Assembly: GCA_040954595.2 (NCBI GenBank)
Contig: CM082580.2
Span: 300,783-364,782, forward strand
Direction of reading: 5' to 3'
Origin: Balanoglossus misakiensis
Lineage: Eukaryota > Animalia > Hemichordata
Length of the DNA: 64,000 bases
Shown: positions 283 to 58,511 of the stretch, one piece after another
Numbering within the stretch: position 1 is the first letter of the stretch
Layout of the letters: each line of letters opens with the position of its first letter
Made by a program: the position numbers and the translations under genes
The notes under the pieces: generated by a model
Database searches by the model: none
What the model was told of the DNA's origin: nothing
The model's input: the letters and a program-made list of their open reading frames with translations, nothing else

Positions 283-353
283 GTCACGATATAAAGACAC
301 CAACTAAAAACTTACAAAATCACAATGTCTTCACAACTCAAAATTTCACTCAC

Positions 354-1446
354 TTCTTTTAGTTTGGTAGCCACCCCTCCTTTCTGTCCTAGCATAACAG
401 GAGCACCATCACTGCCCAAAGCAGACAGACGATCTCTTAAGACAATACCATTCTCTGAAGAAAACTCTTTCACTGACTGTGCAATGGTGTCTGCTCTGCC
501 ATCACCAACCTAAAACAGTGAAAATAAAACCTTGATGTTAACACATGCAATGTACAACTCAATGTTTGTCTCACCTGAAATAACTAGTCAGCAAAATCAA
601 TTAAATGAGGTCACTCAAAAACATGTTTAATCGTATGTTTTTAATTCAGTGTAGACTTAAAAATTGAAAAACTTTCCACTTACTTCTTTAACTCCAAGGA
701 AAGACACAACTGACTTCCCAGACTTCAAGGTGTACTTGGAATAGATGATTAATTGCTTCAATACAGCCACATTAGTTGTTTTCATCTATTAACAGTGAAT
801 AGAAGTTACTTCCTTTCATCTTCTCTAAAATCTCATCACGGATGACTTTGCCTGAAAAATAAAATAAATGAAAATTACTCTTCAGATTAAACTTATCAAA
901 ATTCACAGTAATTTGTACAGTAATTATTCTTTATTGAGTGTAACACTATTGCTTAAACAGTGATCCTTTCTTGAAAACAACCAGGTTTAAATAAATGTTA
1001 CTACATTGCCTACAATTTAGATCTGCACAAAAATCAGTAGACCTACTTACCAATGCAATAAACCATTATAGTTGTGGTCATCACTGCTGAGAGTACCAAG
1101 GAATGAACACCCGAGGGACTTTGCCAATTCCAAAACATGGATGAAGTTGGTGGTGTGCGGCAATTCTCTGTGCATGAGAAAATACATGCATCGTAGGACG
1201 CCGATGCATGAAGGCTTGCGTCTCAAAGGTGATGACCTTGTCAAATGCAGCCACAAGACCGCTGCTGTTCTCGATAACTGCTGCCTCGGCGTCAAGCTGC
1301 ATTGCCGCCCGGTCGATAATCGTCTCTTCATGCTGCTTGAGTTTGTCTTCGCGAAGGGTGGTACATGTACATGGAGATGTTGTAACCCAAGTCCCTCCGC
1401 ACTTGGCCTTCTGCTTGTGTTTTGTACAAAGGCGACAAAACATCCC
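354..1446 (-). pseudogene. Spliced hAT-superfamily transposase (ZNF862/TTF-zinc-finger-like), frameshifted fragment; exons ~1446-1051, 851-684, 509-354
   Basis: Exon 1 reads MFCRLCTKH...W...C...KQHE (TTF-type Zn finger), then shifts frame near 1205 into LRCMYFLMHRELPHTTNF. Exon 2 reads GKVIRDEILEKMKGSNFYSLLIDE/TTNVAVLKQL (first catalytic D, extra A at ~781). Exon 3 reads ...LSALGSDGAPVMLGQKGGVATKLKE (second catalytic D, typical hAT motif). Boundaries are canonical gtaagt/gtgagt donors and ag acceptors. Confidence 0.8.
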
Positions 1447-3783
1447 TAAACTGAATAAATATCATTCTCTCAAATGCCAGCCGCATGCGGGAGCGTGCAC
1501 CAGAAACAATAAATATTTACCAAGGCGGGAATGAAAAGAAAGCAGGGCGGCGCGTAAGATAGCAGGGTGGCAAAAAATAAAGGAGGGCGGGCCTGCCCAG
1601 CTAACCCCCCCCCCCCCCCAAAGTATTAACGCTCTGTGTTTACCATAGACTAATAGTGTCTCAAATTTTACCCTGTGTGAACCTGGTAAGAGACGTGTCT
1701 CAAATCTGAGAAGATTCAGGACCACTTAAACCATTCACCAATAATAATTTATGCCAGTATTTGATCTGAGACGTTTTAGCAATTTCTTGTGTGACCCTCA
1801 TATCAGTTGAAGCTGACAAATCCAGTATTTTGAATTTTTACATGGATTTTGTATACAGTGTGAATTGTAATTAAAGCTCCATTACCTTTACCTTTTTCCT
1901 ATGTTTTCAGTATCTTTGTTTAGCAGTTTCTTGTGCAAATTCCCGAAACATGATGAAACATATATGTGTATGGTCAGCATTGTTATTGTGCCAAATTGGA
2001 ATTTAAGTCCAGACTAGAATCCATGAATTATTGTCAACAATGACAATGGCCATTATACACATACATTCTGTGCTGACAAGTAACAATCTGTGTGGAGTAG
2101 AACATGAAATCGCATTTGCTACATAGAACAAAAATACTGGAAATAAAGCCAAAAGATACAACGAATGTATATTTAACTTTAACTGCATTCTCATTCTCAT
2201 CTGTATATATTTTACTGAGATTGTTTCATCAGGGTTTATCAGTATTCTAAACCAGCTTATGTGTGCATACAATCTGATTAAAATCAGATGTAGGGTACGG
2301 CGACGTCTTTTACTTCGCAGTACGGTATTCTTATACTGTCGCCTCACACTACATCTGACCAACTCCCATAGAAGCTCCCGTTGAAAACTCTAGTAAACCA
2401 ATCAGACGGTGCCTTATAGAGAACTTTAGGTATCCTTCAGTTTTGATTGACATAACGTGCAATCTGATTGGCTTGGCCGCAACGGGACGTTGAACAAGCT
2501 TCTATATCTGATTCATATAATACTGAAAGGGTTAAGAATGGCACACACTACATGTATGAGCTCATGGAATGTGTTTCTTCCCATAGGATAACATTAAGAA
2601 TTGATAGAAAACCCTTTTCTACTATTGTAATTTTAAGAAGTTTCACTCATAACTCATCCAAATGAAATTAAATTGAGTGATTCATATAAGTTGTAGGCTC
2701 ACCACTGTGCTCAGTTTTGAGATAAACTTAAATGTGTCCATGCCTATAGAAAAATAACATAGAAAGACCTATGGTGAAAAATGTTGACTTTAATTCAGGC
2801 TGCATTAGTGGAAAAATAATCATACTTTGTCTGGCATAGAAACTCAGAATCTACAAAAAAGGCCTTTAAAACATGAATGGAAATGAAAATACTGCTACAA
2901 TAAGAAATTCTTACCTTGAATAAAGTATTTATTGGTACCACCACTTCCATAAAGAAACCACTTTGCTGGTGTAATGAGTTGTCAATCTGGGTTTGCTCAT
3001 TGGCCTTGCTTTGAGTTCCAATTCATGATGATGGTGTATTAGGACACTGGACTTGAAACAGGTGTATGCTGGTATTATACACGTTGAAAGTATTGTCATT
3101 CTTTTAATTGTGGATTTTTGGATTATGCTGTGTATGTATAATGAGAATTCGTTAAAAATTGTAGGGGTCATTGCCCTTTTTAAAAAAAAATACAGAGCCA
3201 TGAATTTAGTTGATAATAGAAGAAATTTGCTGTCTCAGCATTTTTCACCAATGGTTTGTCTATGGGCGAAGATTTTAACGCAATTTATCTCATAATAGAG
3301 CTTGGTGACCACATAATTTTTTTTGACCAATGAATTTACGTTTACTTGACTGAGCTATGTGTAAAATTTCGTGAAAAAGACAATAGTAGAAGTTTGTTTT
3401 CTGGCAATTATCGATGTAATCCTTTCAGGAACAGACACACATGCACTGTTTATCAGTTTATGTTGTGCGTGTACATCCTTAAATGGTATTTGCCTCTCAT
3501 GCCTTCCAAATTGTGATTCTGTTCTAGTGTTTTTGTTAAGGGCGGTACCTAGATAAAATCTACCGGAGTACCCCAGTCACTCCGAATTAAAACAACAGAA
3601 CAAGGCCAATGTCACAGTGGTCAGGCAGTCTACCAGAGTTCCCCAGTCATTTTACCGGGGTTCCCCTGGGTGTATCAATGTGGTTATATTAGGAGGTTAT
3701 AGGAATATTAACGGGGTTCCCAAATCCATTACCAGTGTTCCCCGACCTTTGCAAAAACACTGTGTTCTTTTTATCCTCCACAG

Positions 3784-4272: not shown

Positions 4273-4647
4273 TAGTGCTGTTGAGTCTAGCCTTAGCAGC
4301 TCTTATGTTGAGACGATTATTCATTACATACGAGTTTAAATTTGATTATAATGTGTAGTTTATGAAAATATTTAATTAATTCACAACTGATGACAGGTCA
4401 AATGTTATTATTTTCCTCGAGTTTTCATACACATCTGGAATGTTGTCTATATCTTAACAAAAACTATTGTTTAAAAGTCCTGGTGAAAAATCAAGCCAGC
4501 CATTATTTATTGTATTGAAATAGATGGGGGGAGGCACAATGAAAATGGCATATGTTTAGCCTATAGATTTCTGGAAACCACTGGTGAACTCGCTGATAGT
4601 ACTGAGCAATCTGAATGATATGGACATAGTGGTTATTTGGTTGTAGA

Positions 4648-7497
4648 TACAAGACCTCTCTGCAAAATTTTCCTCAAAGAGGTTTTAAATCCGTAACCAA
4701 ATATAAGCGCACACCATTTATAATGTCATTATATATAATATGATTTTGTGTGATAAAAAATCTGATGTTTGGATTTTAAGTATTACATGCCAGAAAGGCC
4801 TCGTTGCTCACTGCTCATGAAAATGCCACTTGTACAAACATGTTCTAGAATTTCTTAAGTAGAGCGCCCTGATGCCCATGACCAATCCAAGTTAATAAAT
4901 TGTGTTCTATTCAGATGCATTCTCTTTTGTGTATTTTATTTCAGTTATTTACTGTTCAGGTCTTCTAGTAGAGAATGTTATGACAGAACCCCATGGCTCG
5001 ATCGTGCAAGCACGGCGTAACGGTAGTATTTGCATCGAGTGTCTGGCGGTGTATTCTTGTGCCCGTCCCCCGCACTCGCTGTCGCTCGTGCGGGGGGCAG
5101 CAAGAATACACCGCCAGCACGAGTGCAAATACTACCGGTACGCCGTGCTTGCACGATTGAGCCATGGGGTTCTGTTTTTATTACATATGTTCATCCCATT
5201 TTGAAAAAAAGACCGAAAATGAAAGAAATGAGACCGCGGAATGATATTGCTTGTTTCGTGAACAGGCCACTCATTTGCATACAGGTATAGCATAATGTTT
5301 TTGGTATTGCACTGAGTGCAAATACCGATGTTACGCGCGCGCTCGGTGCAAGTAATCGACGGTACATATGTAATAAAAACCCTTGCTTCAACCAATTACA
5401 GAGCTTCAATCAGACCAAGTAAACCCTGGTATTATAAATTTATGATCTATGTTATACAGGTATAGGACATTTTGTCTTTCACCATGTTTACACTGGGTAA
5501 AATGAGAAACATTTCAGATACCAGGTTCAGGCAGGGAAAAATTTGAGACACTATTTGCCTATGGTAAACACAGAGCATTAATCCTTTGAGTCGTTTGTGT
5601 CCACACACACAAAGTTTATGTATAGGCACTGCGAGGCTCGGCCCCATAGACAATGGGTTGCGAAGAGGTGTTAATCATTACACCGGATCAGGTCTGGCTG
5701 GCAAAACCGTCTCAAATCTGAAACGTTCCAGGAAGACTTTAATTGTTCACAAAGTATTTTTTATGTCAATGTTTGAGTTGAGATGTTTCAGAAAACTTTC
5801 AATGGTCCCTATGTGAATGCCCTATTTTTAGTTCCTTTGTGTTGTATGTACAAACACATACAAGTTTCAGCTTTAGGGATCAGTCAGAGCATATTATCAA
5901 GCAGTCTGTCTATCGGTTGCTATGTGTGTGTGTGTCTCATCTCCACAAAAAATATGTAGCACTACATGTACTTCATGAATCACAATATACACACAGTGAC
6001 TGGCTGTGAGGGTAACATGTGGATGACATGATGGTGTTATAATGCTATTAAGTGCAAATGTAAAACCTGGACTACAAGACCTCTCTGCAAAATTTTCCTC
6101 AAAGAGGTTTTAAATCCGTAACCAAATATAAGCGCACACCATTTATAATGTCATTATATATAATATGATTTTGTGTGATAAAAAATCTGATGTTTGGATT
6201 TTAAGTATTACATGCCAGAAAGGCCTCGTTGCTCACTGCTCATGAAAATGCCACTTGTACAAACATGTTCTAGAATTTCTTAAGTAGAGCGCCCTGATGC
6301 CCATGACCAATCCAAGTTAATAAATTGTGTTCTATTCAGATGCATTCTCTTTTGTGTATTTTATTTCAGTTATTTACTGTTCAGGTCTTCTAGTAGAGAA
6401 TGTTATGACAGAACCCCATGGCTCGATCGTGCAAGCACGGCGTAACGGTAGTATTTGCATCGAGTGTCTGGCGGTGTATTCTTGTGCCCGTCCCCCGCAC
6501 TCGCTGTCGCTCGTGCGGGGGGCAGCAAGAATACACCGCCAGCACGAGTGCAAATACTACCGGTACGCCGTGCTTGCACGATTGAGCCATGGGGTTCTGT
6601 TTTTATTACATATGTTCATCCCATTTTGAAAAAAAGACCGAAAATGAAAGAAATGAGACCGCGGAATGATATTGCTTGTTTCGTGAACAGGCCACTCATT
6701 TGCATACAGGTATAGCATAATGTTTTTGGTATTGCACTGAGTGCAAATACCGATGTTACGCGCGCGCTCGGTGCAAGTAATCGACGGTACATATGTAATA
6801 AAAACCCTTGCTTCAACCAATTACAGAGCTTCAATCAGACCAAGTAAACCCTGGTATTATAAATTTATGATCTATGTTATACAGGTATAGGACATTTTGT
6901 CTTTCACCATGTTTACACTGGGTAAAATGAGAAACATTTCAGATACCAGGTTCAGGCAGGGAAAAATTTGAGACACTATTTGCCTATGGTAAACACAGAG
7001 CATTAATCCTTTGAGTCGTTTGTGTCCACACACACAAAGTTTATGTATAGGCACTGCGAGGCTCGGCCCCATAGACAATGGGTTGCGAAGAGGTGTTAAT
7101 CATTACACCGGATCAGGTCTGGCTGGCAAAACCGTCTCAAATCTGAAACGTTCCAGGAAGACTTTAATTGTTCACAAAGTATTTTTTATGTCAATGTTTG
7201 AGTTGAGATGTTTCAGAAAACTTTCAATGGTCCCTATGTGAATGCCCTATTTTTAGTTCCTTTGTGTTGTATGTACAAACACATACAAGTTTCAGCTTTA
7301 GGGATCAGTCAGAGCATATTATCAAGCAGTCTGTCTATCGGTTGCTATGTGTGTGTGTGTCTCATCTCCACAAAAAATATGTAGCACTACATGTACTTCA
7401 TGAATCACAATATACACACAGTGACTGGCTGTGAGGGTAACATGTGGATGACATGATGGTGTTATAATGCTATTAAGTGCAAATGTAAAACCTGGAC
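4648..7497. repeat. Tandem duplication, 2 x 1425 bp (4648-6072 / 6073-7497)
   Basis: All ORFs repeat identically at +1425 (e.g. 4902/6327, 5586/7011). TACA microhomology at the junctions. Confidence 0.95.
4983..5380. mobile_element. Compound palindromic (fold-back) non-autonomous element; duplicated at 6408-6805
   Basis: acagaaccccatggctc...gagccatggggttctgt forms a ~190-bp near-perfect hairpin (4983-5175). It is directly followed by a second inverted pair gtttttattacatatgt...acatatgtaataaaaac. Confidence 0.7.
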
Positions 7498-7966
7498 TAC
7501 AGGCAAGATTTTTGAAAGGACGGTAAATGTTGATGCAAAGAATGTTTGAGTCAGCCTATGCACGTGAACTCAAATATACAGAAAAATTTACAAATCTTAA
7601 AGTAACATTTTCGTATGGAATTGTGTACTTTTGAAAATCATTTCAAAATCATGTTATAGACTTGTTGAAAGACTGTTGACTACATCTGATTAAAAAGAAA
7701 CATGAAATTCAAGCAATAACCAGTTTTTTACTTCTCTCTTGCAACAGTGTTAAAGAAATCAAACGGTTTTGTTTTGGCCGGTAAACACCGATGGATTCAC
7801 TCTTAAGTCCATCGTGCATCCAAACGCAGTCGAGTCGGTTTGGTCATTGTTTATGCGACAGTAAATGCCAAATGTGACAGAAGCATCATATTAAATGAGA
7901 TAGAATACACAAACAAACAAAGATACGAATAAACAAACACGCAAACAAACAAACAAACAACCATGA

Positions 7967-12380: not shown

Positions 12381-14129
12381 TATCTCATAGTGTAACCAGA
12401 CTACAAGTGAAGAACCCCAGTAACAGACGTAACGAACAAACAAACTACATGTACTAACAACAAAGCAAGAAAAGTGTCAAGCGTCGTCAAAGAAAACGAA
12501 ATAGTTCTAGCATGGTTGGTAAAAGTTATTGGTAGAAAACGAATAGGGCCTTCTACAAATGACGTCTCAGACCCGCAAACGCCACCAGAACACAAAACAC
12601 ATGCACAGAACAGTTTAAGCCGGTTGTTGTATGGAGCAGCAATAATCTGCGGTTGGGCCGTCGTAGATTTTCGCTGGTGGTGAAAATAAATAAAACACGA
12701 TCGATGTTCGATTTATTCCAGATCACATGCGTTTACGGCCAGAAGAGAGCATAAAAGTCTTCAAATGACCATGTGGTGGCGCACTTTTTCCGATTGGCTG
12801 TATTTCAATTTGTTCGTGGTAAATTAATTTTGTGGAGGTGACCGGCACTGAAGCTCTTAGCTAGGATGAGGTGGGATGGAAAAATGCCCCATTTGACTCA
12901 TTTTAGCTGTTTTAAAATATACGACTATTTATAGACAAAAGGAAAATAAAACAAGCGCAAAAACATACCAAACCTAGTTTTATTAATTACAAAAAAAATT
13001 GCTGAGTAAAGGTTTTCATGTGGGCATTCACTTTGAACTTGCTAAATTACTTTAAAGAGACAAAGTCGCTCTCTCTTTGTCCTTTTGCGATGATGGAATG
13101 CTTGCTTGAAGTCTCTCGTGCAATAAATGATGTCGATTCATACATGTATGGATGGTGTATAGGTGGTCGGAATTTACATGTCTTTGCCACGTCCAAACCA
13201 AAAACACATAAAATCAAACTTTGGGTCATGAAATCGAGTTTTGTTACAGTCTAGAATTTCATGCCACCCCTTTTGGTCATATTATTCTTGGTAGGCAAAA
13301 GTGACAAGTAGTCAAGTTTCAACACAGGCAACATTTTTACAAACAAACCACAAAGAAGACATCAAAAGGGAGAGAATTATAGAATGGTCAATGTGTGAAT
13401 AGTTAAGATACGTAAAGTGGCCGGGTTCAACATAACATTAACTCATCGACTTCATATCGTCTTCATGCCATGGTTTTGCCTGCCCTGAAAAATCTTGTCG
13501 TTGCAGAAGTGGTTTTGACAGAAAGAATTTAGTCTTCCGGGATGTTTGTGATTATTTGAACACCAGACAATACAATGCAACCTTGACTTCCAAAATACTT
13601 ACCGGCATTGCATTATCTTACCATGGTTAGGCCTACAGAGAACAAATTTTCAACAATATTTTCTGAGTTACCGCTGATATTTGTTTTGTAGTATGGATAT
13701 TAAATTATACATCCCGATACAAAACAGAATGTTATAGAATCCTTCCTGAGTGATATTGAAAAAATTACCGGAATGCTATAGCCTAATCTATGGTTAGGGT
13801 TATTGCTATTATTTTATATCAGTAATCGACTTTGTGTATATCAATGTCATTTTCATAACGAAAATGAACTCGAGTCTAATGTAAACGTTACGAATTGATC
13901 GAAAGGCGCTCTGATGAATGTTAACACGAGTGCGCAATGACAAGACATGCATCGTGCATGACAGTGACAACAGTTCCATTAGAGCAGTTAAAAAATAAAC
14001 CGGCCGTCCGTAAATTTATCAGCTATATTTTTTTTTATTTAGTCAAGTTTTCCCTGTTGCATGCTATTAGTTCAGGGGCCAGTTTTAGCAGTGCTCTATT
14101 GAGTACTTTCGTATCGATGGATTGATCTC

Positions 14130-14420
14130 TCGTCCAATCAGAATGGCGGATGGTAGCATGATCCGACATATTGCGTATTACAATAGGGCTTCCTCATACA
14201 GGTCAGAACAGAGAGGTCATTCCTTTTATTTCAGGACGTCTCAGCTCCTTTGTCTTTTCTGTTATTTTTTGACAAATGCGGATTGACGTTCCATTTCCAA
14301 TTGGCGATAATTATATTTATTTGTATTTCATTGCATAAGCGCTTGCTAGTCGTTTTTTAGCAATTTTTTTTGTAGTACAAAAACACTGAAGAAAACGAAA
14401 TATTTTATTCATTCGCACTT
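14130..14420 (+). promoter_or_regulatory. Candidate Pol II promoter for the micro-exon transcript
   Basis: CCAAT box next to a YY1-like aatggcgg (~14134-14148), another CCAAT (~14298), and an Inr-like TCATTC plus ETS-like acttcc near 14409-14422. Motif inspection only. Confidence 0.3.
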
Positions 14421-14970
14421 CCAAAGAACACCGTGACATAATTCCTCAATTTGCATTTCAGTGTGTGTGTCTGGTGTGTCTGCATTGACGTGAGGCGCAT
14501 TCTCCACCCGCACACATACGTTGCATTGCATTCTTTGACTAATTAGTGTTACGTCATGTTGAAGCAGGATTCTGATTGAGTAGTAAGTAAGTTGCATAAT
14601 TGACGCACAGCTGGTGCCTCGTTCTCGTACCGCTGACCATTGCATTTGAAAAATCATTGCAGCTTTGACGTTCATCAAGCATGGAGGTCCCGGTCGCCTC
14701 CATGCTTGATGATGTCGTTTCTCTGGTAAGCATGGCATTTAATGTTATTTTACAAGTACATGTACACTCCTTCTAGCAAAAACTGGTCGTGGTAGGGCGA
14801 GAGGGTCCCCCCAACATCGAAATTCTGACTTTGGGAAGCGTTACAGCACCAAACAGTAAACTCACAGTCGCATGGAATTTGTGCGTTATATTACACCGTG
14901 CGAGTAAATTGTACGTCGTTCGTTGGCTCGAGTCAGCTTTGTTATTGTGGAGCAGGTGGTACCGTAACAC

Positions 14971-15387
14971 CACAGGGGGCTCTCCCTAGGCGATTTTATT
15001 GTTTGTTTGTTGTTGTTGATTGGCATAATAAACAAATACATATTTCTTTATTAATAAATATGGTTTGTTGACATGTAAGGGTTAGGTTATTAGGGTATAT
15101 TTGACAGGTTATGGTATATTCAACGGTTAGAATTAGTGTTGGCATTTTTTCGATCCATGGCCGGCATCACCCCCCCAAACCCCCCCCCCCCCCCACCCCC
15201 TGTGGCTTAGTGATGCCCGGGGCCGTGGATCGAAAAAAATGCCAACAGTAACCCTAACTGTTGAATATACCCTAACACTTACATGTCAACAAACCATATT
15301 TATTAATAATGAAATATGTATTTGTTTATTATGCCAATCAACAACAACAAACAAACAATAAAATCGCGGAGGGAGGAGCCCCCTGTG
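14971..15387. mobile_element. 417-bp palindromic MITE, CAC...GTG termini, 7-bp TSD GTAACAC (P/Galileo-like)
   Basis: gtaacac|cacagggggctc...gagccccctgtg|gtaacac. Almost the whole element is an inverted repeat around a poly-C centre. Confidence 0.8.
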
Positions 15388-15907
15388 GTAACACACTACA
15401 GTATAACTTTTAAGGCAAAGCGATAGCGAATAAACTGACCAGGGTTGGTTTTGTTGTTGGGGAGATTTTTGGCACCATTGAGACTGTTATAAGCTACCAG
15501 TGGGAGCTATGGTATAGCCGTTAACACGCAGCCCTGCCACGCAGAGCTTCTATGACTGGTTACTAACTTCTATGTCTATTTGATTCACAGATGCTGCCTG
15601 AAACTGTCTGCGTTTCAACTCGGGATTCTCTTCCTTGTCCGGGGCGAGTTTAAGACCGCTCAATGGTAAGCATGACTTGCTTTATATTTGCTTTTATCGG
15701 GTGTTGCAACCGAAACAATAGGAAGAAATGTATGTCTACGAACTAATTTACATATTCCAGCTTTCAATACAATGTACCTGTTTTTTCCCCTTCGAATTCT
15801 GGCCTCGATTGCTTGTGATATGATCGTGATGTCATGAATTAGATGGACAACTCACAAGTTCAAATCTTCACGTGGAGCATAAAATAAATGTGGATGCATT
15901 TCCTTAA

Positions 15908-16254
15908 AGGGACAAAGTCTCTCTCTCGCTGCCCTTTTTTCCATTAATTATATTTGATACAAGACACCGTTTGTTATTCTACATGTAGATATATAGTGAA
16001 TGAACGTTCAGCCACACACAACTTCCGTCCCACTTGTAGACACGATAGTAAAAATACTCGCCAAAATGAATAATCGTTCTTTACCATTTATTCATTTTGG
16101 GCGAGTTTTTACTCTCATATCATACAAGCGGGATGGAAGTTTTGTGTGGTTGATCATTTATTCACTATATATCCAAATGTACATTGACATAAACAGTGTC
16201 TTGTATCAAACATAATTAATGGAAAAAGGACAGCGACAGAGAGACTTTGTCACT
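15908..16254. mobile_element. Kolobok-type MITE, TTAA TSD (family also at ~59832-60180, ~60583-60858, partial ~54665)
   Basis: ttaa|agggacaaagtctctct...agagactttgtcact|ttaa. The duplicate copy has the empty site atgcatttccttaaccata (~22362-22380). Confidence 0.85.
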
Positions 16255-18139
16255 TTAACCATATAGCTAAAATTACTCCCATATCAATACACAGGGAGAT
16301 ACTTTAACTTTGGCTGAACGTGTGCTAGTCCAAAACTATGCTTAATCAAACTGGCTAAGAGATCTGTTATTATATTAGACGCATGAAGGAAAGTAATGTT
16401 GTTTAGAGTGAAATAAAACAATACTTTAGGCCAGAAAGAAAAATGTAAATCATGACACAAACAGGCTGGAAATTTTTTCTGACCCTATATTATACCATGT
16501 TTTGCATATTTTCACTAATTTGTATGGCCCACATAATTCTAAAGCAAGGTTGATTGGTTACTAATTAATATTTGCATATATTTGATTCACAGTCTTAAAC
16601 ACAGCATTTCAACGTATGCCGGAGGAGGAAGAGAATACTTAGGCCTGATCCAAGACCGCTTTCCGGTAAGCACACCTTGCTGTATACATGCTCCATAGCT
16701 TGTTTGTAAATGCTACCTTTTCCCATCAAATAGTGAAGTCACCCTTTTAAAATTATGGTGGTGGCAAGCCACAACTGGTTATCATGAAGAGTTGGACACC
16801 ACTAATAATCATTTTAATATTTTCCAATTGGTAACCTTTATGTACCACTATCCTCAACAATTTCAGTCAACAAGATTCATATTGCGCTGTATAGCAAGGC
16901 CAAACAAATATGACTGATTGATAGGGATTTTTCTGAAAATGTGACAAAATCAACAAATAAACAATAATCAGTCACCAATCATGCATTATGTGTTATTCGA
17001 GGGAACCTGAGCGGGTCCCATAAACCTGCCAACCCATGCTAGCCATGACTTTACAAATGTTTCCGTCATACTATGCAGAAAATTCTGGCTGCCTTAAATA
17101 GGTTTTTCACTTTGCGCTAGGTGTCAAATCTCATTGCATTCTGGGCGGAAAGTCCATAACCAACTGTAGTAAGAGATAGAAGAAATGATATGTTTACTGT
17201 ATTTCATGACTTCCTTCGGTCAAACATTTCTGTCTCGGTAGTTAGCATATTAAACTTTTTTTCACTTTTGCTATTTTTTCTGTTAAAAAGTTCAAGAATG
17301 ACCCATCATCATTTTAGCTTATGAACTCCCATTTCTTTAACATGGCAAAAATCGGCCATCTTGAAATTATCGACCGTATGAGATTTTCATCACTCATTTA
17401 GGGTAGCTTAAAACGTGTTTAAAGTAGGGAGAATTGTATAGGCAAGACTTGGGCTGTAAATTTGATGAAATAGCTACATGACTATTGTTCACAAGCAGCT
17501 GACTGTACTGTAAGACTGGAAGTGTTGTGTACATATTTTACATATTCAATATTTGTAATTAGACCATGTCATGTATATCTTGGGGATTGCTCGATCACAA
17601 TGTCTCTGCTGGTACAATGTCCTTTTAACATGTTCAGTAATATGGTAGTAATTGTAAGTTTGTGTGCGGCATTTGTAAATTATTTACAATTTATAAATTA
17701 TTTTGTAAGTTTCTTCATTCTCAAATTGCTTGCCTAACGTACTGCATTAACATTTAAATTTTGGTATGATTTTGAGTAGACTTTTTGTTTCAAAATTATT
17801 TTTGACACTTTTGGGTGATATGATTTTACATGGAAAATCTGATTTCCCTGTAATTCGGTTGACAGGATTTTCATCATATCTCTAAATCATGAAGTACATG
17901 TATCAGACTTGCATCAGGCCCTCAAAATTCTAGTCGCCTTTGGCAAGTAATATTAGCCATTGATCTGGGAAAGTTACAAAAATGTGTTGTCCAAGGACGT
18001 TGAAGGTACATGTGGTTTTTACACTTGCTGCATGTTTATAATTTGCAATAGAAATAGACACTCAGTGCCAGCCCACTATCCCGTCTCCTTATTGCTGACT
18101 TGTATGTATGTACGTATGTACGCATTTTATCAGAATTAT

Positions 18140-21100
18140 TAGGTCCCATTTGGTATATGTATTTATACCATGGTACCTTACGGGATCAGTTGCACCTGTA
18201 TGTATGGATGTTTGTATGTCCATCAACATCAAACATTTGGAAACTACTGGCATTTCACCTTGATATTTAATGTGCAGACAGGGCAGTAGATGGGAGTTTG
18301 TCTCAGTGAAGTTGTCATTGCCAAAATATGCAAATTAGCTGGGAAAGTGTCAAATTCGTCAAAACTTGGGAACTCAACAACTACTGGGCAAATTGCTTTC
18401 AAAATTGATAATTGGTATGCATGTACCTTATGGTATCCTCTCACAATTCTACATGTTGTGAGCTAATAATGTGAATTTTCTATTTTTAAGCATTTTTTTT
18501 TCTCTTTCCACATTGTCGGTAAAAACCTACTTTTCTGGAATTGATCAGCTGACTTGTTTGAAATTTATTATGAAGCTTCATAGGTGATCTGAGTTACCAA
18601 CCATAGTTTTGTTTAAATTGTTGCCAAAAATTGCGTATTTATAATTTTGGAGCAATTTTTAGGTCCCATTTGGTTTATGTACATATATACGATTGGGACC
18701 TTATGGAATCAGTTGCATTTGTATGTATGAGTGAATGGATGAAAACCGCTGGGCATATCACTTCCATATTTAGTGTGTAGATGCAGGCGGGGCTGTAGAT
18801 GGGATTTTGTTCAAATGAAATTGTCATTGCCAAAATATTACCTGTGTAAATGTGAAATTGGTCAAAAGTCAGAAACTTGACAACCACTGGTCAGATTGGT
18901 ATGTCAATGAACCCCATACAGTCCTGTATGTTGTGAGCTAATATTATGAATTTTCTAATGTTTATTAATTTTTTTTGTCTTTTTCCACATTATTGGTAAA
19001 AAAAAATCTTCACTTCTGAAAGCGATAGTCTGACTCCTTCGAAATTTAGTATGAAGCTTCCTATGGGTGGTCCGAGTTACCATATTTTTTGTTCAGATTG
19101 TTGTAAAATAGGCATATTTATAATTTTGAGCAATTTTGCCAATTATGGTCAGAATGCTTTGCAATTTGGTAGGCAGATTCCCAGGGGTAACCCAAGGAAG
19201 ATGTCATAAAAATGGTTAAAACTGCGTGCTTGTGTTATTGGGGATATTTTTTGCAATCTTTGTCAAAAACTGTTTTCTGTTAAACCGTTCAAACCCTTGT
19301 CAGATTGCTTTGAATTTTGGCAGGAATGTTCCTTGTAGTGATTGAAGTAAGATGGTGTACAATTATAGAGATGTTTGCATATTTGTGTTTTTGCCACTTT
19401 TGAACAAATGTGTTTTTCTTTGAAACTGCTTTTTTGATGGCTTTGAAATATGGTAGGAATATTCCTAGGGGTAACCCAATTTTTAGCTCACCTGAAAATC
19501 ACGTGAGCTTATAGTTTAGCGATGTCTGTGTATGTGTGTGTCTGTCTGTATACCCGATATCTCAAGAACCGCTGAACCGATTTCAACCAAATTTAGTACA
19601 CAGGTTCAGATATCATATGGCAAGAACTGAAAAGGTTTTGGTGGGTGTGGCTTTGATATTAATGAAGTTATTAAAGTTTTAATTTTTCTATTACATGGTT
19701 GTCTATGAGAGCTTTCGTTAATGCTGCATATATGACCAGTGGAAACGATAATTTGAGGAGATCGACTGTTTGAGGGCGCTGTGAAATGAGACATTCCTGG
19801 CGATATTGCCGTGGTTCTGTCCATGCTCAGACGCTGTACCCGTCGTTACGAATAACTTCCCTACGTGAATCCACAAGGAAGCTAACGTTGTTTAGTTGCT
19901 TCATAGAGCGTAAATTGTTAATCTACAGGACCGTCAGACGAATACTCTTTTCAAATGAAGTTTGAAACTACTTACGAGTAAGTTAGTGGAGACAATATGG
20001 CGGATAGTTGGCGTGCAGCCGAATCCGCGTTATGACTATGACGTGACCCATTCATCAAGACAAACCGTAAATGATTCACGCATATTGTGGTCCTCACGCA
20101 GTCAATCTCAAAATGTCACCAGGCTTTCTATTTGTCTATTGTTCAGAGAAAAATAACATGGCGGTTGATCACACTCAACAGTAAAATCCGTTTTGTGTGT
20201 TTATAGACAGTCTGTTATCGCCAATACTATATAGCGATTGCTAGATGGCCTACCCAATATGTGATCGAGCGAGAATGATAACATTGAATGTCTGTTCAGA
20301 TCTCATTCCGTATGTCATACGTCAACATTTCGATTTCGATTTAATCCATTCATAAAGAATTTAGAGAAAGTCGTCTTGAATTGTGACCCCGACTATCAAT
20401 TAGTTTACGATGATTTTTTGGCGACGGAATACACGAGACGCCATTGCATAACTACGTCAGCTGGACTTCCAAGGTTACCATTTTGTGTGTATGGAATCTT
20501 ATCACAGAGCCTACGTACTTTGACAATATGCCATGCTATATCAATGACGCCCCAGAAAATTTGTCAAAAAATGAATTTGTCTTCTCATGGTGGTGCAATA
20601 TATTTTAATGTCTATTTTGAGGTTGATTTTGGTTTTTGGCTAACATGTATATAAATGTCAGCTTATAGCATAAGTTGGTGTCCGTCGGCTATGTATGTCT
20701 GTATGTGTGCCTCATACAGAATTATGTATTTTGTGAATGGATTAGTTTCGTCTTAATGTATTGATGTATGTATGTGTATGTCCATCAACATCAAAAACTT
20801 GAAACTACTGATATTTAATGTGTACATAGAAATTGTTATTGCGAAAAAATGCATACTGGTATTAACTGGAAAAATGTTCAAATAGTCAAAATTGAAAAAC
20901 TTAATAACAGCGGATCAGATTAAGTTAAAAATTGGCGTGCATTGGTGTGCAAGTACTTTGGGAAGACCTAGTATGATTTTGTTCAGGTGGAGTCAGTATC
21001 TGGCGTTTCCTATTTTTTATGAATTTTTTGGGGAATTTTCTGCAGTTTTGTTAAAAAAAAATTTTCTCTGAAATTACATGTCCAATTGATTGGAAACTTG

Positions 21101-21600: not shown

Positions 21601-23831
21601 CAGTTCAGGATGGGGTACATGACTCATAACCCCTTACAAAAATTGACAAGGCAACAATTCCACAAACATGTTTACATTTCACAATGGTGCAACACACAAC
21701 CCTTACACCATATACACTATAAACCAAAATGGTTTAAAACTGGTTTTTCTAATCTTGTTATTCTGTCAACCAATCACAGTACTGCACGTGAGCATATTCA
21801 GTTAATATCTGGTTCCTGATTGCTTTGGAAGTTAGTTAACAATTTCATAACACATGTACATGTATGTGCAACTTTGATTAAATTCTGGTTGTCAATATTT
21901 AGGTAGTTTGTTGTAAATTTCTTTGTTTTTGGATAGCAAATCTTTTTAACCAATTGCTCAGTTTCTTTGAAAGTTACTGTTAACAAGGAGAGTTAGTACA
22001 CCCAACTTAGACTTTTACACCCAACTTAGAGCTACTATGACTGGTTACTAACTTCTATATCTATTTGATTCACAGATGCTGCCTGAAATTGTCTGCATTT
22101 CAACTCGGGATTCTCTTCCTCGTCTGGGGCGAGTTTAAGACCGCTCAATGGTAAGCATGACTTGCTGTATATTTGCTTTTATCGGGCGTGGCACAACCGA
22201 AACAATAGGAAACAATGTATGTCTACGAACTAATTTACACCTTCCAGTTATCAATACTTTTTTCCTTCGAATTCTAGCCTCGATTGCCTGTGATATGATC
22301 GTGATGACATGAATTAAATGGTCAAGTTCAAATCTTCATGTGAAGCATAAATTAAATTTGGATGCATTTCCTTAACCATATAGCTAGAAATTACTCCCAT
22401 ACCAATACACGGGGAGATACCGTAATTTTGGCTGAAAGTGTGCTAGTCCAACACTATGCTTCATCAAACTGGCTAAGAGATCTATTATTATATATAGACA
22501 CATGAAGGAAAGTAATGTTGTTTATAGTGAAATAAAACAATACCTTAGGCCACAAAGAAAAATATAGATCACGACACAAACAGGCTGGAGTTTTTTTCAA
22601 AAATGTGTGCATAAGATCATATTGGCCCATGGTAATCAAAGCCAAAGCAGCCCAGTTCCAAATTCGAAACTCAGCTCAGTACCAGAAACTTGCTCAAAGC
22701 TACCAAATGCACAGAAAGTTTTGAGAATCTAGATGAAAAATCACCAAGCGACTAGTGCGCTTGTCTATGTTCAATGTGTCTTCCCTGGTAACAACATGTA
22801 CTTCTGCCACCATGCCATGAGATATACTGACAGCCACGTTTGAAACATTTTAGTATACTGATATTCAAAGTTTAAATGTAAAGGCTTACTTTTCTATAGT
22901 AAAATAAATGTTTTATAATTGCCAACAATTTACATTCTTGCGCTAATCAGTTGTATGAAAAGTGAGGTGGATCAAATGTAAGTTTCATTTTCACAACAAA
23001 CATTAAGAAATCATTGTACAGTGTTACGTAGATGTCAAAGTGTGTGTACACCTGTCGTTTACAGATATGATGTCAGTTTCACTTGTCACCTAACTGCCAT
23101 GTTTGTGGTATACCCATGTGGACCACTTTACTGCAGTACTGATGTAAATGGAGTTTCAAGATCGCTGTTACAGATTTCTCTGATTCGTATTCCACGTACA
23201 TTATCGCAGCACAGTCTGACCCTATATTATACCATGTTTTGCATATTTTCACTAATTAGTATGGCCCAAATAATTCTAAAGCAAGGTTGATTGGTTACTA
23301 ATTGATAAGCAAATATTTGATTCACAGTCTTAAACACAGCATTTCAACGTATGCCGGAGGAGGAAGAGAATACCTAGGCCTGATCCAAGACCGCTTTCCG
23401 GTAAGCACAACTTGCTGTATACATGCTCCATAGCTTGTTTGTAAAGGCTACCTTTTCCCATCAAATAGTGAAGTCGCCCTTTCAAAATTATGGTGGTGGT
23501 AAGCCACAACTGGTTATCATGGAGAGCCCCATATAAACTTACCAGCCCACGCTAGCCATGACTTTACAAATGTTTCCGTCATACTATGCAGAAAATTCTG
23601 GCTGCCTTAAATAGGTTTTCACTTTGCGCTAGGGGGTCAAATCACATTGCATTCTGGGCGAAAAGTCTACAACCCACTGTAGTAAGAGGTGGAAGAAATG
23701 ATACATTTTGTGTATTTCATGCTTTGGTCAAACATGTCTGTCTCCGTAGTTAGCATATTAAACTCATTAAATGTTTTTCACATTTTGTTATTTTGTCTGT
23801 TATGACCCATTATCACTTTAGCTTTAGCTTA

Positions 23832-24618
23832 GGCTCCATTCACAAACACCTCTGGATGGGGGGGGGGGGAGAATTCAATTTTTTTACTGCTAATTTTCAC
23901 ATGCCCCCCCCCCTGTACACAACCCGAAATATTTTCAAATCCCCCACCCCCTTCTGAACTGCCAAAATTTTAAAATCCCCCCCCCCCCATTTTCTTTCAC
24001 AGAGCAAAACACATCACTTATCTATCTTGTAAAAAAGAAAAACAGCGCTCCCATGAAAAGACTTTGAAACTGATGTTTCCCCTCATCAGTGGGTATTAAA
24101 ACTGAACATGGTTTTTATTTTTTAAGTATTTGTATTCTGTGTTGGGAGACATTGTAAACCGGGAATTGAAGGGGGTGGGTGTGGGAAGGGGTGTCCCCCT
24201 CCCACGTAAGAAAATTTTATAAAATACAGAGCTCAAAGCTGCATTTTTATGAACCCGGCAAAAGCAAATTAACTCAACTACCAGTATGTTGGGGAGGATA
24301 AATTTAACCGTCGCCGCTCAAAGTTATCATGGGGTGGGGGCAAGTCCCCTGACATGGGACACTAGATAAACCAGTTAATGATTGAAAGGTGTTGATGAAT
24401 GGAGGGGGGTGGGTGTGGGAGGGGGTGTAAAATAAAGGGCGCGAAACTGCATTTTTGTGGACTCAAAATAAATATTTAGTCGTCAAAGTTTTCAAGTCCC
24501 CCCTTTCAGTCCCTAAATTATTTCAAATCCCCCCTTACATACCTTCAATTTTTTCAAATCCCCCCCCCGCTCAATTCTCCTGCCCCCCCCCTCGCCAGAG
24601 GTGTTTGTGAATGCAGCC
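23832..24618. mobile_element. 787-bp MITE, PIF/Harbinger-type, 3-bp TTA TSD
   Basis: tta|ggctccattcacaaacacctctgg...ccagaggtgtttgtgaatgcagcc|tta. Empty site ttagcttatgaactccc in the paralogous copy (~17314-17330). Confidence 0.85.
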
Positions 24619-25315
24619 TTATGAACTCCCATTTCTTTAACATGGCAAAAATCGGCCATCAATTGTCGACCATATGAGATTTTCATCACTCACTTAGGGT
24701 AGCTTAAGGGAGAATTGTATAGGCATGACTTGGGCTGTAAATTTGATGAAATAGCTACATGCCTATTGTTAACAAGCAGCTGACTGTACTGAAAGAATGG
24801 AAGTGTTGTGTACCTATTTTACATATTCAATATTTGTAATTAGACCATGTCATGTATATCTTGGGGATTGCTCGATCGCAATGTCTCTGCTGGTACAATG
24901 TCCTTTTAACTTGTACAGTAATATGGTAGTGATTGTAAGTTTGTGTACGGCATTTGTAAGTTATTTTCAATTTATAATTTTTTTGTAAGTTTCTTCATTC
25001 TCAAATTGCTTGCCTAACGTACTGCTTTAAAATTTAAATTTTGGTATGATTTTGAGTAGACTTTTGTTTCAAAATTATTTTCGACACTTGACATGTTTGG
25101 GTGATATGATTTTACATGGAAAATCTGATTTCCCTGTAATTCGGTTGACAGGATTTTCACAATATCTCTAAATCATGAAGTACATGTATCAGAATTGCAT
25201 CAGGCCCCCAAAATTCTAGTCGCCCTTGGCAAGTAATATTAGCCATTGTTGTCCAAGGACGTTGAAGGTACAATTGGTTTTTAAACTTACTATGTAGGCA
25301 TTTTATCAGAATTAT

Positions 25316-28300
25316 TAGGTCCCATTTGGTGCAGGTATATGTATTTATACCATGGGACCTTATGGGATCAGTTGCACCTGTATATATGGATGTCTGTATG
25401 GATGTTTGTCTGTATGTCTATCAATATCAAACACTTGGAAACCACTGGCATGTGACCTTGATATTTAGTGTGGAGATGCAGGCAGGGCATTAAGTGGGAG
25501 TTGTCAAAATGAAGTTGTCATTGCCAAAATATGCAAATTAGCTGGGAAAGTGTCAAATTCGTCCAAACTCGGGAACTCGACAACTACTGAGCAAATTGCT
25601 TTCAAAATTGAAAATTGGTATTCCTGTAAGTTATGTTAACCTCACACAGTTCTATATGTCGTGAGCTAATGTGAATTTTCGATTTTTTATGTATTTTTTG
25701 TCTCTTTCCACATTATCGGTAGAAAATCTGCTTTTCTGGAATTGATCAGCTGACTTATTTGAAATTTAGTATGAAGCTTCATAGGTGATCTGAGTTATCA
25801 TAGTTTTGTAAGGTCCCATTTGCTTTACCATGGGACCTTATGATATCGGTGGATGTATGTATGTATGTCTGTATGTCCGTCCACATCACAAACTTGAAAA
25901 CCGCTGGGCATATGACCTCGATATTTGGTGTGTAGATGCAGGCCAGGCTGAAGATTGGAGTTTGTTCAAATGAAGCTGTCATTGCCAAAAATATGCAAAT
26001 TAGCTAGGAAAATGTGAAATTGGTCAAAACTCAAACTCAACAACCACTGGTCACATTCATTTGAAAATCAGTATGCATGTACCTTATGTCTACCTCAAAC
26101 AGTCCTGTATGTTTTGAGCTAATATTATCGATTTTTAATTTTTTATGCCAAAAATCTTTTATGCATTTTTTGTATTATTCCACATTATTGGTAAAGAAAT
26201 CATCATTTCTTAAAGTTATAGGCCTCATTCTTTGAATTTTAGTATGAAGCTTCTAATGGTTGTCTGAGTAACCAAAGTTTTGTTCAAATTGTTGAAAAAT
26301 TTGCATATTTTAATTTTGAGCAATTTTTGCCACTTTTGGTCATTTTTTTTTTCTTTAAAACTGCATGCCAGATTGATTTGGTAGGCATATTCCTAAGGGT
26401 AAACTGAGTAAGATGTTGTAAAAATGTTTTAGTATATATTGTGTTATTGGGGAAGGGGGGGGGGGTTACTCAAACATTTATAACACCCAGCAACTTTTGG
26501 TACTGGCAGGGTTTGTCCTCCAATGATTTCAACATCCTGCTAGGAATACAACCTCTCCTCAACTTTATAAATATAGGGCATGACATTGCAGGTTTTTTGA
26601 GAACGCTGTTTAAAATAACCCTCATCAAGCCTGTTAACTTATTTAGACAGACTATTATCCAGAATGAAACGAAACATGGATGCAATAAAAAGATCTTGTG
26701 CAATAAAAACCAAGTTGATCATAACAATTATTTGCTAAGTACAACATGTACATCACTAATAGAAGTTATGGCTATAAGCATAAACCTGTTTGTTTTGCTA
26801 TCTTCACTATTCATATTATCTGACTATATTAATACATTTGCAAGCATACTGTTTCAGACATAGCGAATTTGATAAACATCTACAAATATATTTTTACCTG
26901 TTGAAGTTATCAAAATCCAGACACTTGACAAAAGGACATTTTTCATCCCCTCTATAGATTGATAGTCTAACATAGCAGGCAATCTGTTTTTAACAACTGC
27001 AGAAGCCTTCATAAAAAGTTGTTGGCCAGAATGAAAGCTTAAGGGGACGTAGGATTTCCTACTTTTTAGGTTATTTTTTCTATGGCCCCAAAAAGCTATG
27101 ACAAAAAATTGATGACCCCCTTGGAATTTATAATTCCCCCCCCCCTATCATACCCTGTCCATATTCTTATAAATGTCAATAAATGCCATACAGTCCTGTA
27201 TGTTTTGTTTTGAGCTAATATTATGAATTTTCTATTTTTATTGTTTTGTCTTTTACTGCATTATTGGTAAAGAAAAATCTTCCTTTCTGAAAGCCATAGT
27301 TTTTGTCCAAATTGCAAATTGTTGTGAAATTGGTATATTTATAATTTTGAGCAATTTTGTAATTTTTGCTCAGAATGCAGATTCCTAGGGGGGTAACCCA
27401 AGTAAGGTGTTGTAAAAGAATTGTTTAAAAAATAAAAATATATTTGTAGATGGTTATCAAATTCGCTGTGTCTGAAAGCGCTTGTCAGATTGCTTTGAAC
27501 TTTGACAGGAATGTTCCTTGTAGTGATTTAAGTAAGATGGTGTACAATTATAGTGATTTTTGCATATTTGTGTTTTTGCCACTTTTGAACAAATGTAGTT
27601 TTGTTTAACCCCCATCTTACCCTATCCATATTCAAATAAATATGAAAAGAAATTTCTCACAGATATTATTTACTTTGATAATACTATCATTTGTGCAACA
27701 ACTAATCAATCAAACAGTCAATAATCATAAATTGGGAGTTCAAAAATATCTATAAGGGAGATTTAAAACCCCGTTAGCAACAACTGTTTGCCATGTTTTC
27801 AGTATTAATGTTTTGTGTAGCTTCTGCAGTTTTTAGGTCCCATATGGTATGTACCATGGGCCTTATGGAATCAGTTGTGTCTGTATTTATGTATGGATGT
27901 ACTGTATTTTCGCGAGTTAAATTTTTCGCGATATCGAGAGAGGCCACTGTTTCGCGAGTATTAATTTTCGCGTTCTCTTATTTCATTCACTGCATCGTTA
28001 TCTTCAAAAACAATTTACGCGACTTTTTATTTTCACGTTATTTTGGCTCTCGCGTATTTGGCGAAAATTAATTGCTCGCGAAAATAAAGTGTTTTACAGT
28101 ATGTCTGTCTGTTTGTATGGATGTATGTCTGTATGTCCGTCCACATCTAAAACTTGAAAACCGTTGTGCATATCACCTCGATATTTGGTGTGCAGATGCA
28201 GGCTGGGCTGTAGATTGGAGTTTGTTAACATGAAAATGTCATTACCAAATATATGCAAATTAGCTGGAAAATGTGAAATTGGTCAAAACTCGCAAAATTC

Positions 28301-32650: not shown

Positions 32651-33431
32651 TGATTTTTGATTTGATTTGGTTTCAGGGTGATTTCTCATGATGATTTACA
32701 AAACCTATGACTGATTACTTTGAAATTTGAGTAGGAAGTTAATTGGATGTGTTTGTTTAGATAATGGAATCAAATAAAGTTATTCATTCTTCACCTTCAT
32801 TCTTCACCTCATTTCATTTATTGGCTGGTTTGTCTATTGTATCAGGGAAGAGTACTTGCCATCCCACCCCACCGATGCAAACTTTGAGTGGCAAAAGTAA
32901 AATTTGTCGTAACATTGAGTTAATTTGCTTTTGGGCTCACTAAAATGCAACTTTGAGCTCTGTATTTGTACAAAATTTTCATTAATTGGCTGGTTTGTCT
33001 ATTGTACCAGGCCAGCATACATAAGATCAAGATGTTTTCGGGGCTGGGGGGGGCATCATATTTTATTGCCTCTCTATGTGTGTGTCTGTCTGTCTGTACT
33101 CCTGTGTAGACTTTTTCTAGTGTAATCACTAAATGAGACCACAGTGTCCTTGACGCTATTTTTTGCGATTTTCAATGACCCTGGGGTAACCTTTGACCAG
33201 CTTTCATATATCTTGGTATTCACAGCAGAATACAGCCTTGGCATACCCTGGTAACCATGGGAACCGTTTGGGCCCAACCAATGGTGCTGGCAGCGTTAAT
33301 TTTTAAATGATTTCTTCTTGTCGTTTTCTTTATCAATATGATGACTTGACCTAATCAGATTATTAAAATAATTTCATTCTTTTTTTACATTAGGTTCTTT
33401 GGTAACACTGCTGCTGGAGGGAGTGTAATAT

Positions 33432-54315: not shown

Positions 54316-54418
54316 TTAAAGCACTGAAAGGTTCAGAGGACTAACATTTTTCTGAAAATCCGTCTCCTAAGTGTGCACTATAATGGCAGTTTAATTGTTT
54401 TCAAAAATATCAACTTAC

Positions 54419-58474: not shown

Positions 58475-58511
58475 TTAACATGGCTGACTCATGATCATAT
58501 CTGATACTCAC

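What the first reader, a model, noticed from the sequence alone, without database searches (positions are those of the whole stretch)
15591..16665. Two micro-exons that build an RNA hairpin only after splicing
Seen: exon A (15591-15665) and exon B (16593-16665) are 927 nt apart with strong splice signals. Joined, they read ...ATTCTCTTCCTTGTCCGG-ggcga-GTTTAAGAC-cgctcaat-G|TCTTAAAC-acagcatttcaacgtatg-CCGGAGGAGGAAGAGAAT.... GTTTAAGAC/GTCTTAAAC is a perfect 9-bp stem whose 3' arm is created by the junction. An outer ~18-bp stem pairs the A interior with the B interior (one G.U, one mismatch). Inference: a splicing-dependent structured ncRNA, such as an hpRNA/endo-siRNA or junction-spanning miRNA precursor. 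I do not recognise the family.
Basis: partly seen in the sequence, partly recalled or inferred. Interest (0 to 1): 0.8.

Follow-up and report, generated by a model that had tools for sequence, protein, structure and literature searches.

The report
Copied exon with flipped middle pairs
Two short exon-like stretches in an animal genome are old copies of one another, and a 23-base piece lies flipped in one, so they are predicted to pair with or without splicing; the hairpin is likely a by-product in a probably non-coding spliced RNA, not a splice-triggered switch.

Summary
Coordinates, splice signals and both stems are real and beyond chance (A+B z -2.2; duplex reached by 1 of 1500 random pairs). 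The headline claim fails: the 3' arm of the 9-bp stem already lies in the genome (its first base is the G of B's acceptor AG), and the unspliced RNA is predicted to form both stems. A and B are old paralogous exons; flipping A 15620-15642 back restores colinearity (103 of 131 columns). The flipped piece is no better kept than the rest (18 of 23, no compensatory change), while the splice signals are identical (26 of 26), so selection is seen on splicing, not on pairing. No Rfam or protein family matched; no RNA data for this species were available. Best reading: a spliced, probably non-coding RNA whose fold is a passenger of duplication plus micro-inversion (0.5). Rivals: small secreted-peptide exons (0.2), young hairpin RNA cut by Drosha/Dicer (0.15), splice-steering helix (0.1).

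The parts
14266..14670 (+). Promoter-like stretch (inferred): five TGACG/CGTCA half-sites, CCAAT-type words, CpG not depleted
   Evidence: 5 half-sites in 14266-14725, reached by 1 of 973 sliding windows outside the satellite (the one that holds this stretch; mean 0.39); CpG o/e 1.12 against 0.63. Naming these words CRE half-sites is recalled knowledge. No TATA word.
14666..14717 (+). Hairpin in upstream exon E0: 22 bp, one bulge, 7-nt loop, with a perfect 16-bp core
   Evidence: (I17); 14650-14725 folds at -35.3, z -6.70, 0 of 500 shuffles; 14600-14800 z -4.15, 0 of 200
14726..14731 (+). Donor of upstream exon E0 (5' end of E0 not fixed)
   Evidence: GTAAGC; within the best 8 of 4003 plus-strand GT sites by my rough matrix
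15591..15665 (+). Exon A (75 nt), branch hexamer at 15561
15620..15642 (+). Segment of A that lies inverted in B (16619-16641); holds the 5' arm of the outer stem
   Evidence: Best of all single inversions of 8 nt or more: alignment score to B rises from -5 to 39. A 6-bp inverted repeat (15617-15622 / 15645-15650) lies close to the ends (read directly).
15648..15656 (+). 5' arm of the 9-bp inner stem
16592..16600 (+). 3' arm of the inner stem, already in genomic DNA: acceptor G plus the first 8 nt of B
16593..16665 (+). Exon B (73 nt), paralogue of A, branch hexamer at 16559
15904..16258 (.). Foldback (MITE-like) insertion in the A-B intron, absent from copy 2
   Evidence: related copies at 59828-60184 and 60581-60865
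17079..18030 (+). Candidate last exon (weak acceptor at 17078; AU-rich; begins with a dispersed repeat); unproven
   Evidence: 41 nt before and 28 nt after the AG are identical in both copies; matrix score only 2.7; 17166-17322 resembles 59564-59731
22028..26453 (+). Second copy of the block 15543-19244 (tandem duplication, lacks E0)
   Evidence: a public DNA contig identical to 21785-22155 crosses its start
22076..22150 (+). Exon A' (71 of 75 identical to A), splice signals intact
23328..23400 (+). Exon B' (72 of 73 identical to B), splice signals intact

Best explanation
A and B are old copies of one exon in a likely spliced, probably non-coding RNA (E0-A-B, with a younger copy A'-B'), and they are predicted to pair because a 23-base middle piece lies flipped in one copy; the hairpin is likely a passenger, not the selected function. 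Shown in the sequence: paralogy, the inversion, genomic presence of both arms, the second duplication. Predicted: pairing before and after splicing. Inferred: a CpG-rich, TGACG-rich promoter drives the transcript; the spliceosome uses E0, A and B (their signals are kept far better than the rest); one ancestral exon with weakly self-complementary ends was copied about 1 kb downstream, its middle then inverted in one copy, which makes the two middles complementary at a stroke; the 9-bp stem is what is left of the ancestral end repeat (A's 3' end with B's 5' end). With E0 joined to A the exons' shared open frame is closed by a TGA at the junction and no reading frame over 35 codons crosses the exons, so the product would be a long non-coding RNA or a 5' leader.
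For: A and B share branch, acceptor, two internal motifs and donor (local score 62, 0 of 300 shuffles). Flipping one segment gives 103 of 131 identical columns over 15553-15692 / 16551-16692 and removes 14 kcal/mol of the fold (-47.2 to -33.3). The flipped segment keeps 18 of 23 Watson-Crick pairs (78%), like the 73% background, with 3 breaks, 2 G.U and no two-sided change. Predefined splice-signal positions are 26 of 26 identical against 77 of 105 elsewhere (P about 3e-4). A's own ends pair at 7 of 9. Both arms are genomic and pair in the unspliced RNA. Homologous motifs of A and B fall in different reading frames. E0|A gives a stop codon; longest frame 35 codons. Micro-inversions of 17-33 nt beside inverted repeats are a described mutation class (PMC8755829, abstract).
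Against: No RNA evidence that the locus is transcribed or spliced. Both A/A' changes inside the stem keep pairing (T/C opposite G), which fits selection on structure, though two changes prove little. Of four possible end-to-end pairings only the A-3'/B-5' one is perfect (9 of 9 against 7, 6 and 4). 4 of 5 exon changes between the copies are synonymous in the one open frame (P 0.06). Exons differ less between copies than deep intron (5 of 148 against 38 of 405, p 0.02) but not less than all aligned non-exon DNA (108 of 1672, p 0.16). The breakpoints of the best inversion do not sit exactly on the 6-bp inverted repeat, and B has 5 extra bases at the left breakpoint.
Confidence: 0.5

Rival explanations
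1. A and B are coding micro-exons of a small, possibly secreted protein; the hairpin is incidental. A supplies a hydrophobic, signal-peptide-like stretch; the start would come from another first exon (a candidate ATG exon at 14143-14201 joins in frame) or from E0 with A skipped.
For: Each exon has exactly one open frame and they join in phase, also in A'/B'. 4 of 5 changes are synonymous (P 0.06). The 14143-14201 candidate gives frames of 82-122 codons through A and B; E0 joined to B or B' gives 43 or 83 codons. The signal-peptide look is my reading by eye; no predictor was run.
Against: No homologue: (none at E <= 10), Pfam 0 families for the A and B frames, Atlas no usable hit. The one hit among 1.84 billion proteins is a bacterial-type multi-TPR protein with 0 significant stretches; adding B lowers the score to its repeats (12.9 to 11.1 bits). 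E0, the strongest upstream donor, closes the frame at A. A and B are homologous in different frames. Three of the five changes lie at CpG sites. The candidate last exon differs in frame between copies. These searches are weak for 24-residue pieces.
Confidence: 0.2
2. A young hairpin-RNA gene: the E0 hairpin and the A.B stem are cut by Drosha or Dicer to give small RNAs or to turn the transcript over; duplication and inversion built the substrate and it is now kept.
For: Two independent folds beyond shuffles in one candidate transcript (E0-A-B z -6.1, 0 of 500); 35 paired positions in the outer A.B stem; stem changes between copies keep pairing. Junction-spanning RNase III stems exist in yeast and possibly human host genes (PMC12508059, abstract and section 11); Drosophila hpRNAs are young and lineage-specific (10.1101/2025.11.28.691189, passages).
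Against: Longest unbroken helix 12 bp in A.B, with a branched 49-nt top; E0 stem only 22 bp with no CNNC word in 14718-14750; no compensatory change; no Rfam family; no match of 12 nt or more to a possible target elsewhere in the window (the genome was not held).
Confidence: 0.15
3. The pairing acts in the pre-RNA: it loops out the intron, sets A's donor 9 nt from a helix that ends on B's acceptor G, and so steers which copy is joined (A-B, A-B', or skipping of A, whose inclusion after E0 makes a stop).
For: Inner stem covers the acceptor G and B's first 8 nt and is predicted in the unspliced RNA (0.64 copy 1, 0.41 copy 2); only this end pairing is perfect; unusually strong branch words in all four exons.
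Against: All four A/B combinations pair about equally (-43.9 to -48.4), so the helix cannot choose between copies; equilibrium folding over 1 kb ignores co-transcriptional splicing; no sign of selection on pairing.
Confidence: 0.1
4. The locus is a silent remnant: exon-like signals of a dead gene fragment, not transcribed.
For: No RNA evidence; no sure last exon or conserved poly(A) word; region full of repeats.
Against: Splice signals identical at 26 of 26 positions between A and B and intact in A' and B'; promoter-like stretch directly upstream.
Confidence: 0.05

Closest known systems
Junction-spanning RNase III stem-loops of mixed snoRNA host genes (S. pombe snR107-snoU14 / Pac1; human SNHG25) (PMC12508059; abstract and section 11 read)
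   Same: A stem built from two adjacent exons of a spliced, non-coding transcript
   Different: There the stem is a post-splicing cut signal that frees an exonic snoRNA and shows pair-neutral or compensatory changes across species. Here both arms are predicted to pair before splicing, no snoRNA was found, and no two-sided change is seen.
Drosophila hairpin RNAs (hp-CG18854, hp-CG4068, Nmy, Tmy) (10.1101/2025.11.28.691189; 10 passages read)
   Same: Young, lineage-specific inverted-repeat transcript
   Different: hpRNAs have extended duplexes that give many 21-22 nt siRNAs, often with complementary targets. Here the core is about 20 bp with a mismatch and a bulge; no reads or targets are known.
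Splice-site-overlapping miRNAs such as miR-34b (PMC3794580; start of abstract in the search listing only)
   Same: A hairpin that overlaps a splice site in the precursor
   Different: Those are local pri-miRNA hairpins that splicing destroys. Here the arms lie in two exons 1 kb apart and only one base of the acceptor is paired.
Micro-inversions of 17-33 nt flanked by inverted repeats (PMC8755829; abstract read)
   Same: Size (23 nt) and a short inverted repeat near the ends
   Different: Seen here between paralogous exons of one transcript rather than between species, so it yields an RNA duplex; breakpoints do not sit exactly on the repeat.

Membership tests
Junction-spanning RNase III stem-loop (Pac1/SNHG25 type) | Stem needs splicing to form | tested here: not met
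   Both arms genomic; unspliced pair probabilities about 1.0 (outer) and 0.64 (inner), by prediction
Junction-spanning RNase III stem-loop (Pac1/SNHG25 type) | Intronic plus exonic snoRNA in the host | tested here: not met
   Rfam: 0 matches at gathering score in the window; 9 weak matches in 13900-18100, none a snoRNA, 8 of 9 on the two foldback insertions. Undescribed snoRNAs would be missed.
Junction-spanning RNase III stem-loop (Pac1/SNHG25 type) | Staggered RNase III cuts | not testable with these tools
   No RNA run of this species
Drosophila-type hpRNA | Extended duplex able to give several siRNAs | tested here: not met
   Longest unbroken helix 12 bp in A.B; 22 bp in E0
Drosophila-type hpRNA | 21-22 nt reads from the arms | not testable with these tools
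   No small-RNA data
Drosophila-type hpRNA | Complementary target gene | tested here: inconclusive
   No 12-nt match outside the copies in the window; no third A-like copy at 80% in one low-depth DNA sample (5 contigs laid per run); genome not held
Canonical animal pri-miRNA | About 35-bp regular stem with a simple loop (criterion recalled) | tested here: not met
   35 paired positions split into 9 helices under a branched 49-nt top; E0 stem 22 bp
Canonical animal pri-miRNA | Match to a known miRNA family | tested here: not met
   Rfam none; no arm matched, by eye, the urchin, sea-star and Saccoglossus list in supplement 3 of PMC3247247. miRBase was not searched.
Protein-coding micro-exons | Open frame in matching phase | tested here: met
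   One open frame per exon, phase 2 join
Protein-coding micro-exons | Synonymous bias | tested here: inconclusive
   4 of 5, P 0.06
Protein-coding micro-exons | Homologous proteins | tested here: not met
   weak for such short queries
Protein-coding micro-exons | In-frame start exon and end exon | tested here: inconclusive
   E0|A gives a stop; a weaker donor at 14202 keeps the frame open; last exon uncertain

The most novel reading that the evidence does not exclude
A stress- or signal-inducible hairpin-RNA gene caught in the making in an acorn-worm-like animal: exon duplication plus a 23-nt inversion built an exon-exon duplex, a second duplication made four interchangeable arms, and the spliced RNA (E0 hairpin plus A.B stem) is cut by Drosha or Dicer into small RNAs. 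This would be a route to new small-RNA genes by exon copying, in a phylum where the held library showed no study of such loci.
Probability: 0.12. Interest if true: 0.65.

Novelty: new member of a known kind. Interest (0 to 1): 0.3.

Why it matters
As it stands it is a clear, small example of how an exon-exon RNA duplex can arise in two ordinary mutations, and a warning that a hairpin across a splice junction need not depend on splicing (every acceptor ends in G, as most exons do). It also marks a likely gene (promoter-like stretch, three to five exons) that no family or protein search recognised. If the arms proved to give small RNAs, it would show a birth route for hairpin-RNA genes in a non-vertebrate deuterostome.

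Tried and rejected
No whole genome was held, so no search for other copies, targets or the rest of the gene. RNA: no RNA holder listed; the two RNA runs laid (X21, X3; about 1 in 100 of each read) gave only low-complexity matches, 97 of 97 and 200 of 205 reads partly fitting, 5 of 30 bins, so they look like another organism and say nothing on expression. Metagenome scan: the pattern was one base too long and matches 0 sites even in the window, so its 8 loci are chance and were not read; the scan is uninformative. The corrected pattern matches 4 of 4 exons in the window but was not run on a collection. Protein searches found nothing. TPR look of A's frame: a sum of weak repeats picked from 1.84 billion proteins; my profile test is circular and B adds nothing; rejected. 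Antizyme-type +1 frameshift at the E0|A TGA: the +1 frame stops after three codons (read; antizyme layout recalled); rejected. Selenocysteine or read-through at that TGA: no SECIS family in Rfam, start sits inside a -35 kcal/mol hairpin; not excluded, not supported. IRE1/XBP1-type loops (consensus recalled): loops do not fit. snoRNA host: no Rfam match. E0 as a third paralogue: 18 of 300 shuffles as good against A, 132 of 300 against B; not supported. False haplotype duplication: the copies differ by about 9% in introns while other contigs of the sample differ from the window by about 1% (9 of 766, 9 of 1057), and a contig crosses the start of copy 2; rejected, though that sample may be the source of the assembly and depth is too low to count copies. 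The C2 start was one base off; one search replaces those rows. My splice matrix is rough and its branch bonus was chosen after seeing these sites. Literature: 7 searches; none listed this locus or small-RNA work on such loci in hemichordates; subscription papers and bioRxiv supplements were not visible.

Full report
Observation. A rough splice matrix of my own ranks their donors within the best 13 of 4003 plus-strand GT sites and their acceptors 5th and 25th of 2719 AG sites (the branch bonus was chosen after seeing them). The outer 18-nt stem has one G.U and one mismatch and the inner 9-bp stem is perfect. Joined A+B folds at -47.2 kcal/mol against -38.4 +/- 3.9 (z -2.24; 10 of 500 shuffles); A alone (z 0.24) and B alone (z 0.94) do not fold better than shuffles. 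The duplex energy was reached by 1 of 1500 random pairs.

The splicing-dependence claim fails. The complement of the inner 5' arm occurs twice in the window, at 16592 and 23327: its first base is the G of the acceptor AG, so the junction supplies nothing new. In the unspliced RNA the outer stem is predicted at about 1.0 and the inner at 0.64, against 0.97 after splicing; leaving out the intronic foldback element changes nothing, and copy 2 gives about 1.0 and 0.41. These are equilibrium predictions and ignore co-transcriptional splicing, but they remove the basis for 'only after splicing'.

(1) The block 15543-19244 is repeated at 22028-26453, with exons A' (71 of 75) and B' (72 of 73) and intact signals. 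Public DNA contigs match both copies, one crossing the start of copy 2 without a difference; that sample may be the assembly's source. (2) An upstream donor at 14726 closes an exon (E0) whose last 60 nt form a 22-bp hairpin, the strongest fold here (z -6.70, 0 of 500). (3) 14266-14725 holds five TGACG half-sites (reached by 1 of 973 windows, the one holding this stretch) and has CpG o/e 1.12 against 0.63, which I read as an active promoter (inference; the CRE label is recalled). The neighbour on the minus strand at 51.7-62 kb is a CUB-Sushi-EGF gene; no further exon of it was found left of 51.7 kb. Earlier scan notes call this genome a likely acorn worm (not checked here).

Why A and B pair. 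They are paralogues: local alignment with flanks scores 62, 0 of 300 shuffles, and one pattern spanning an internal motif, the 3' motif and the donor matches all 4 exons and nothing else. Their middles do not align directly. A scan of every single inversion of 8 nt or more found that flipping A 15620-15642 lifts the score from -5 to 39 (best of 60 controls with B's middle shuffled: 35). With the piece flipped back, 103 of 131 columns are identical over about 140 bp and the fold loses 14 kcal/mol. A 6-bp inverted repeat lies near the ends, as is usual for micro-inversions of 17-33 nt (PMC8755829, abstract), though the best breakpoints do not sit exactly on it. The inner stem is a remnant of end-to-end complementarity in the ancestral exon: A's own ends still pair at 7 of 9, B's at 6 of 9, A-3' with B-5' at 9 of 9.

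What is under selection. Predefined splice-signal positions are identical at 26 of 26 between A and B, against 77 of 105 elsewhere (P about 3e-4): both exons have been kept spliceable. The flipped segment keeps 18 of 23 Watson-Crick pairs, like the background, with three breaks, two G.U and no two-sided change. Against my reading: both A/A' changes in the stem keep pairing, and only the inter-exon end pairing is perfect. Between copies the exons differ at 5 of 148, deep intron at 38 of 405 (p 0.02), all aligned non-exon DNA at 108 of 1672 (p 0.16).

Coding or not. Each exon has one open frame and they join in phase; 4 of 5 changes are synonymous (P 0.06; three at CpG). But E0|A makes a stop in that frame and the longest frame crossing E0-A is 35 codons; only a weaker donor at 14202 (82-122 codons) or skipping of A (43 or 83 codons) keeps it open. 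The motifs shared by A and B fall in different frames. No homologue or family was found; the single hit is a sum of weak TPR repeats. These searches are weak for 24-residue pieces, so coding stays open at about 0.2.

Mechanism. Most likely (0.5): a promoter at 14.3-14.7 kb drives a spliced non-coding RNA or 5' leader, E0-A-B with A'-B' as an alternative or extension; the A.B stem forms as a passenger of duplication and inversion. Shown: paralogy, inversion, genomic arms, second duplication. Predicted: folding. Inferred: transcription, splicing, lack of coding. Rivals: coding micro-exons (0.2), young Drosha/Dicer substrate (0.15), splice-steering helix (0.1), silent remnant (0.05).

Comparison with known systems. 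It works like, but is not a member of, the junction-spanning RNase III stems of snoRNA hosts (PMC12508059, abstract and section 11): the stem is not splice-dependent and Rfam shows no snoRNA. It is far shorter than Drosophila hpRNAs (10.1101/2025.11.28.691189, passages): longest helix 12 bp. It is not a regular pri-miRNA, and no arm matched the ambulacrarian miRNA list in supplement 3 of PMC3247247 by eye. Seven library searches listed nothing on this locus.

Limits. No genome, no RNA of this species, and no orthologue: the one metagenome scan used a faulty pattern. Verdict: a real, probably spliced locus with a real but most likely incidental duplex; interest 0.3.

Noticed in passing
window 14666-14717: 22-bp hairpin with three ATG-bearing words at the end of upstream exon E0, z -6.7; stronger than the reported A.B fold; an ATG in good context at 14681 opens a 35-codon frame that ends in exon A
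   Followed up: partly
window 14143-14201: ATG in strong context directly after a CCAAT word, with a moderate donor at 14202 that would join exon A in its open frame; lies in a stretch (to 14265) that a public DNA contig of depth 12.4 shares and then leaves
   Followed up: partly
window 22080-22090: Start of exon A' carries a 9-nt site complementary to bases 2-10 of miR-2007 as listed in PMC3247247 supplement 3 (compared by eye); A has one change in it; likely chance
   Followed up: partly
window 51705-61925, minus strand: Multi-exon gene with CUB, CUB, three Sushi and two calcium-binding EGF domains by Pfam; its 3' part was not found
   Followed up: partly
window 36066-50869: 15-kb satellite of 90-nt and 74-nt units, open for up to 1307 codons on one frame of each strand, interrupted at 40369-41198 by an 830-bp insert with terminal inverted repeats
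   Followed up: no
window 33394-33466 and 34231-34330: Two related plus-strand exon-like stretches with strong acceptors flanking a 50-nt tandem array (14 copies); the first is 73 nt with one open frame
   Followed up: no
window 14975-15382 and 15904-16258: Two foldback (MITE-like) insertions, one in each of the first two introns; the second is absent from copy 2
   Followed up: partly
window 4640-6075 and 6075-7500: Near-identical tandem duplication of about 1.4 kb, seen by eye
   Followed up: no
window 350-1450, minus strand: Several exon-like open stretches that look, from recall, like a ZNF862-type transposase-derived gene; Pfam gave no family at E 0.01 for the frames tested
   Followed up: partly
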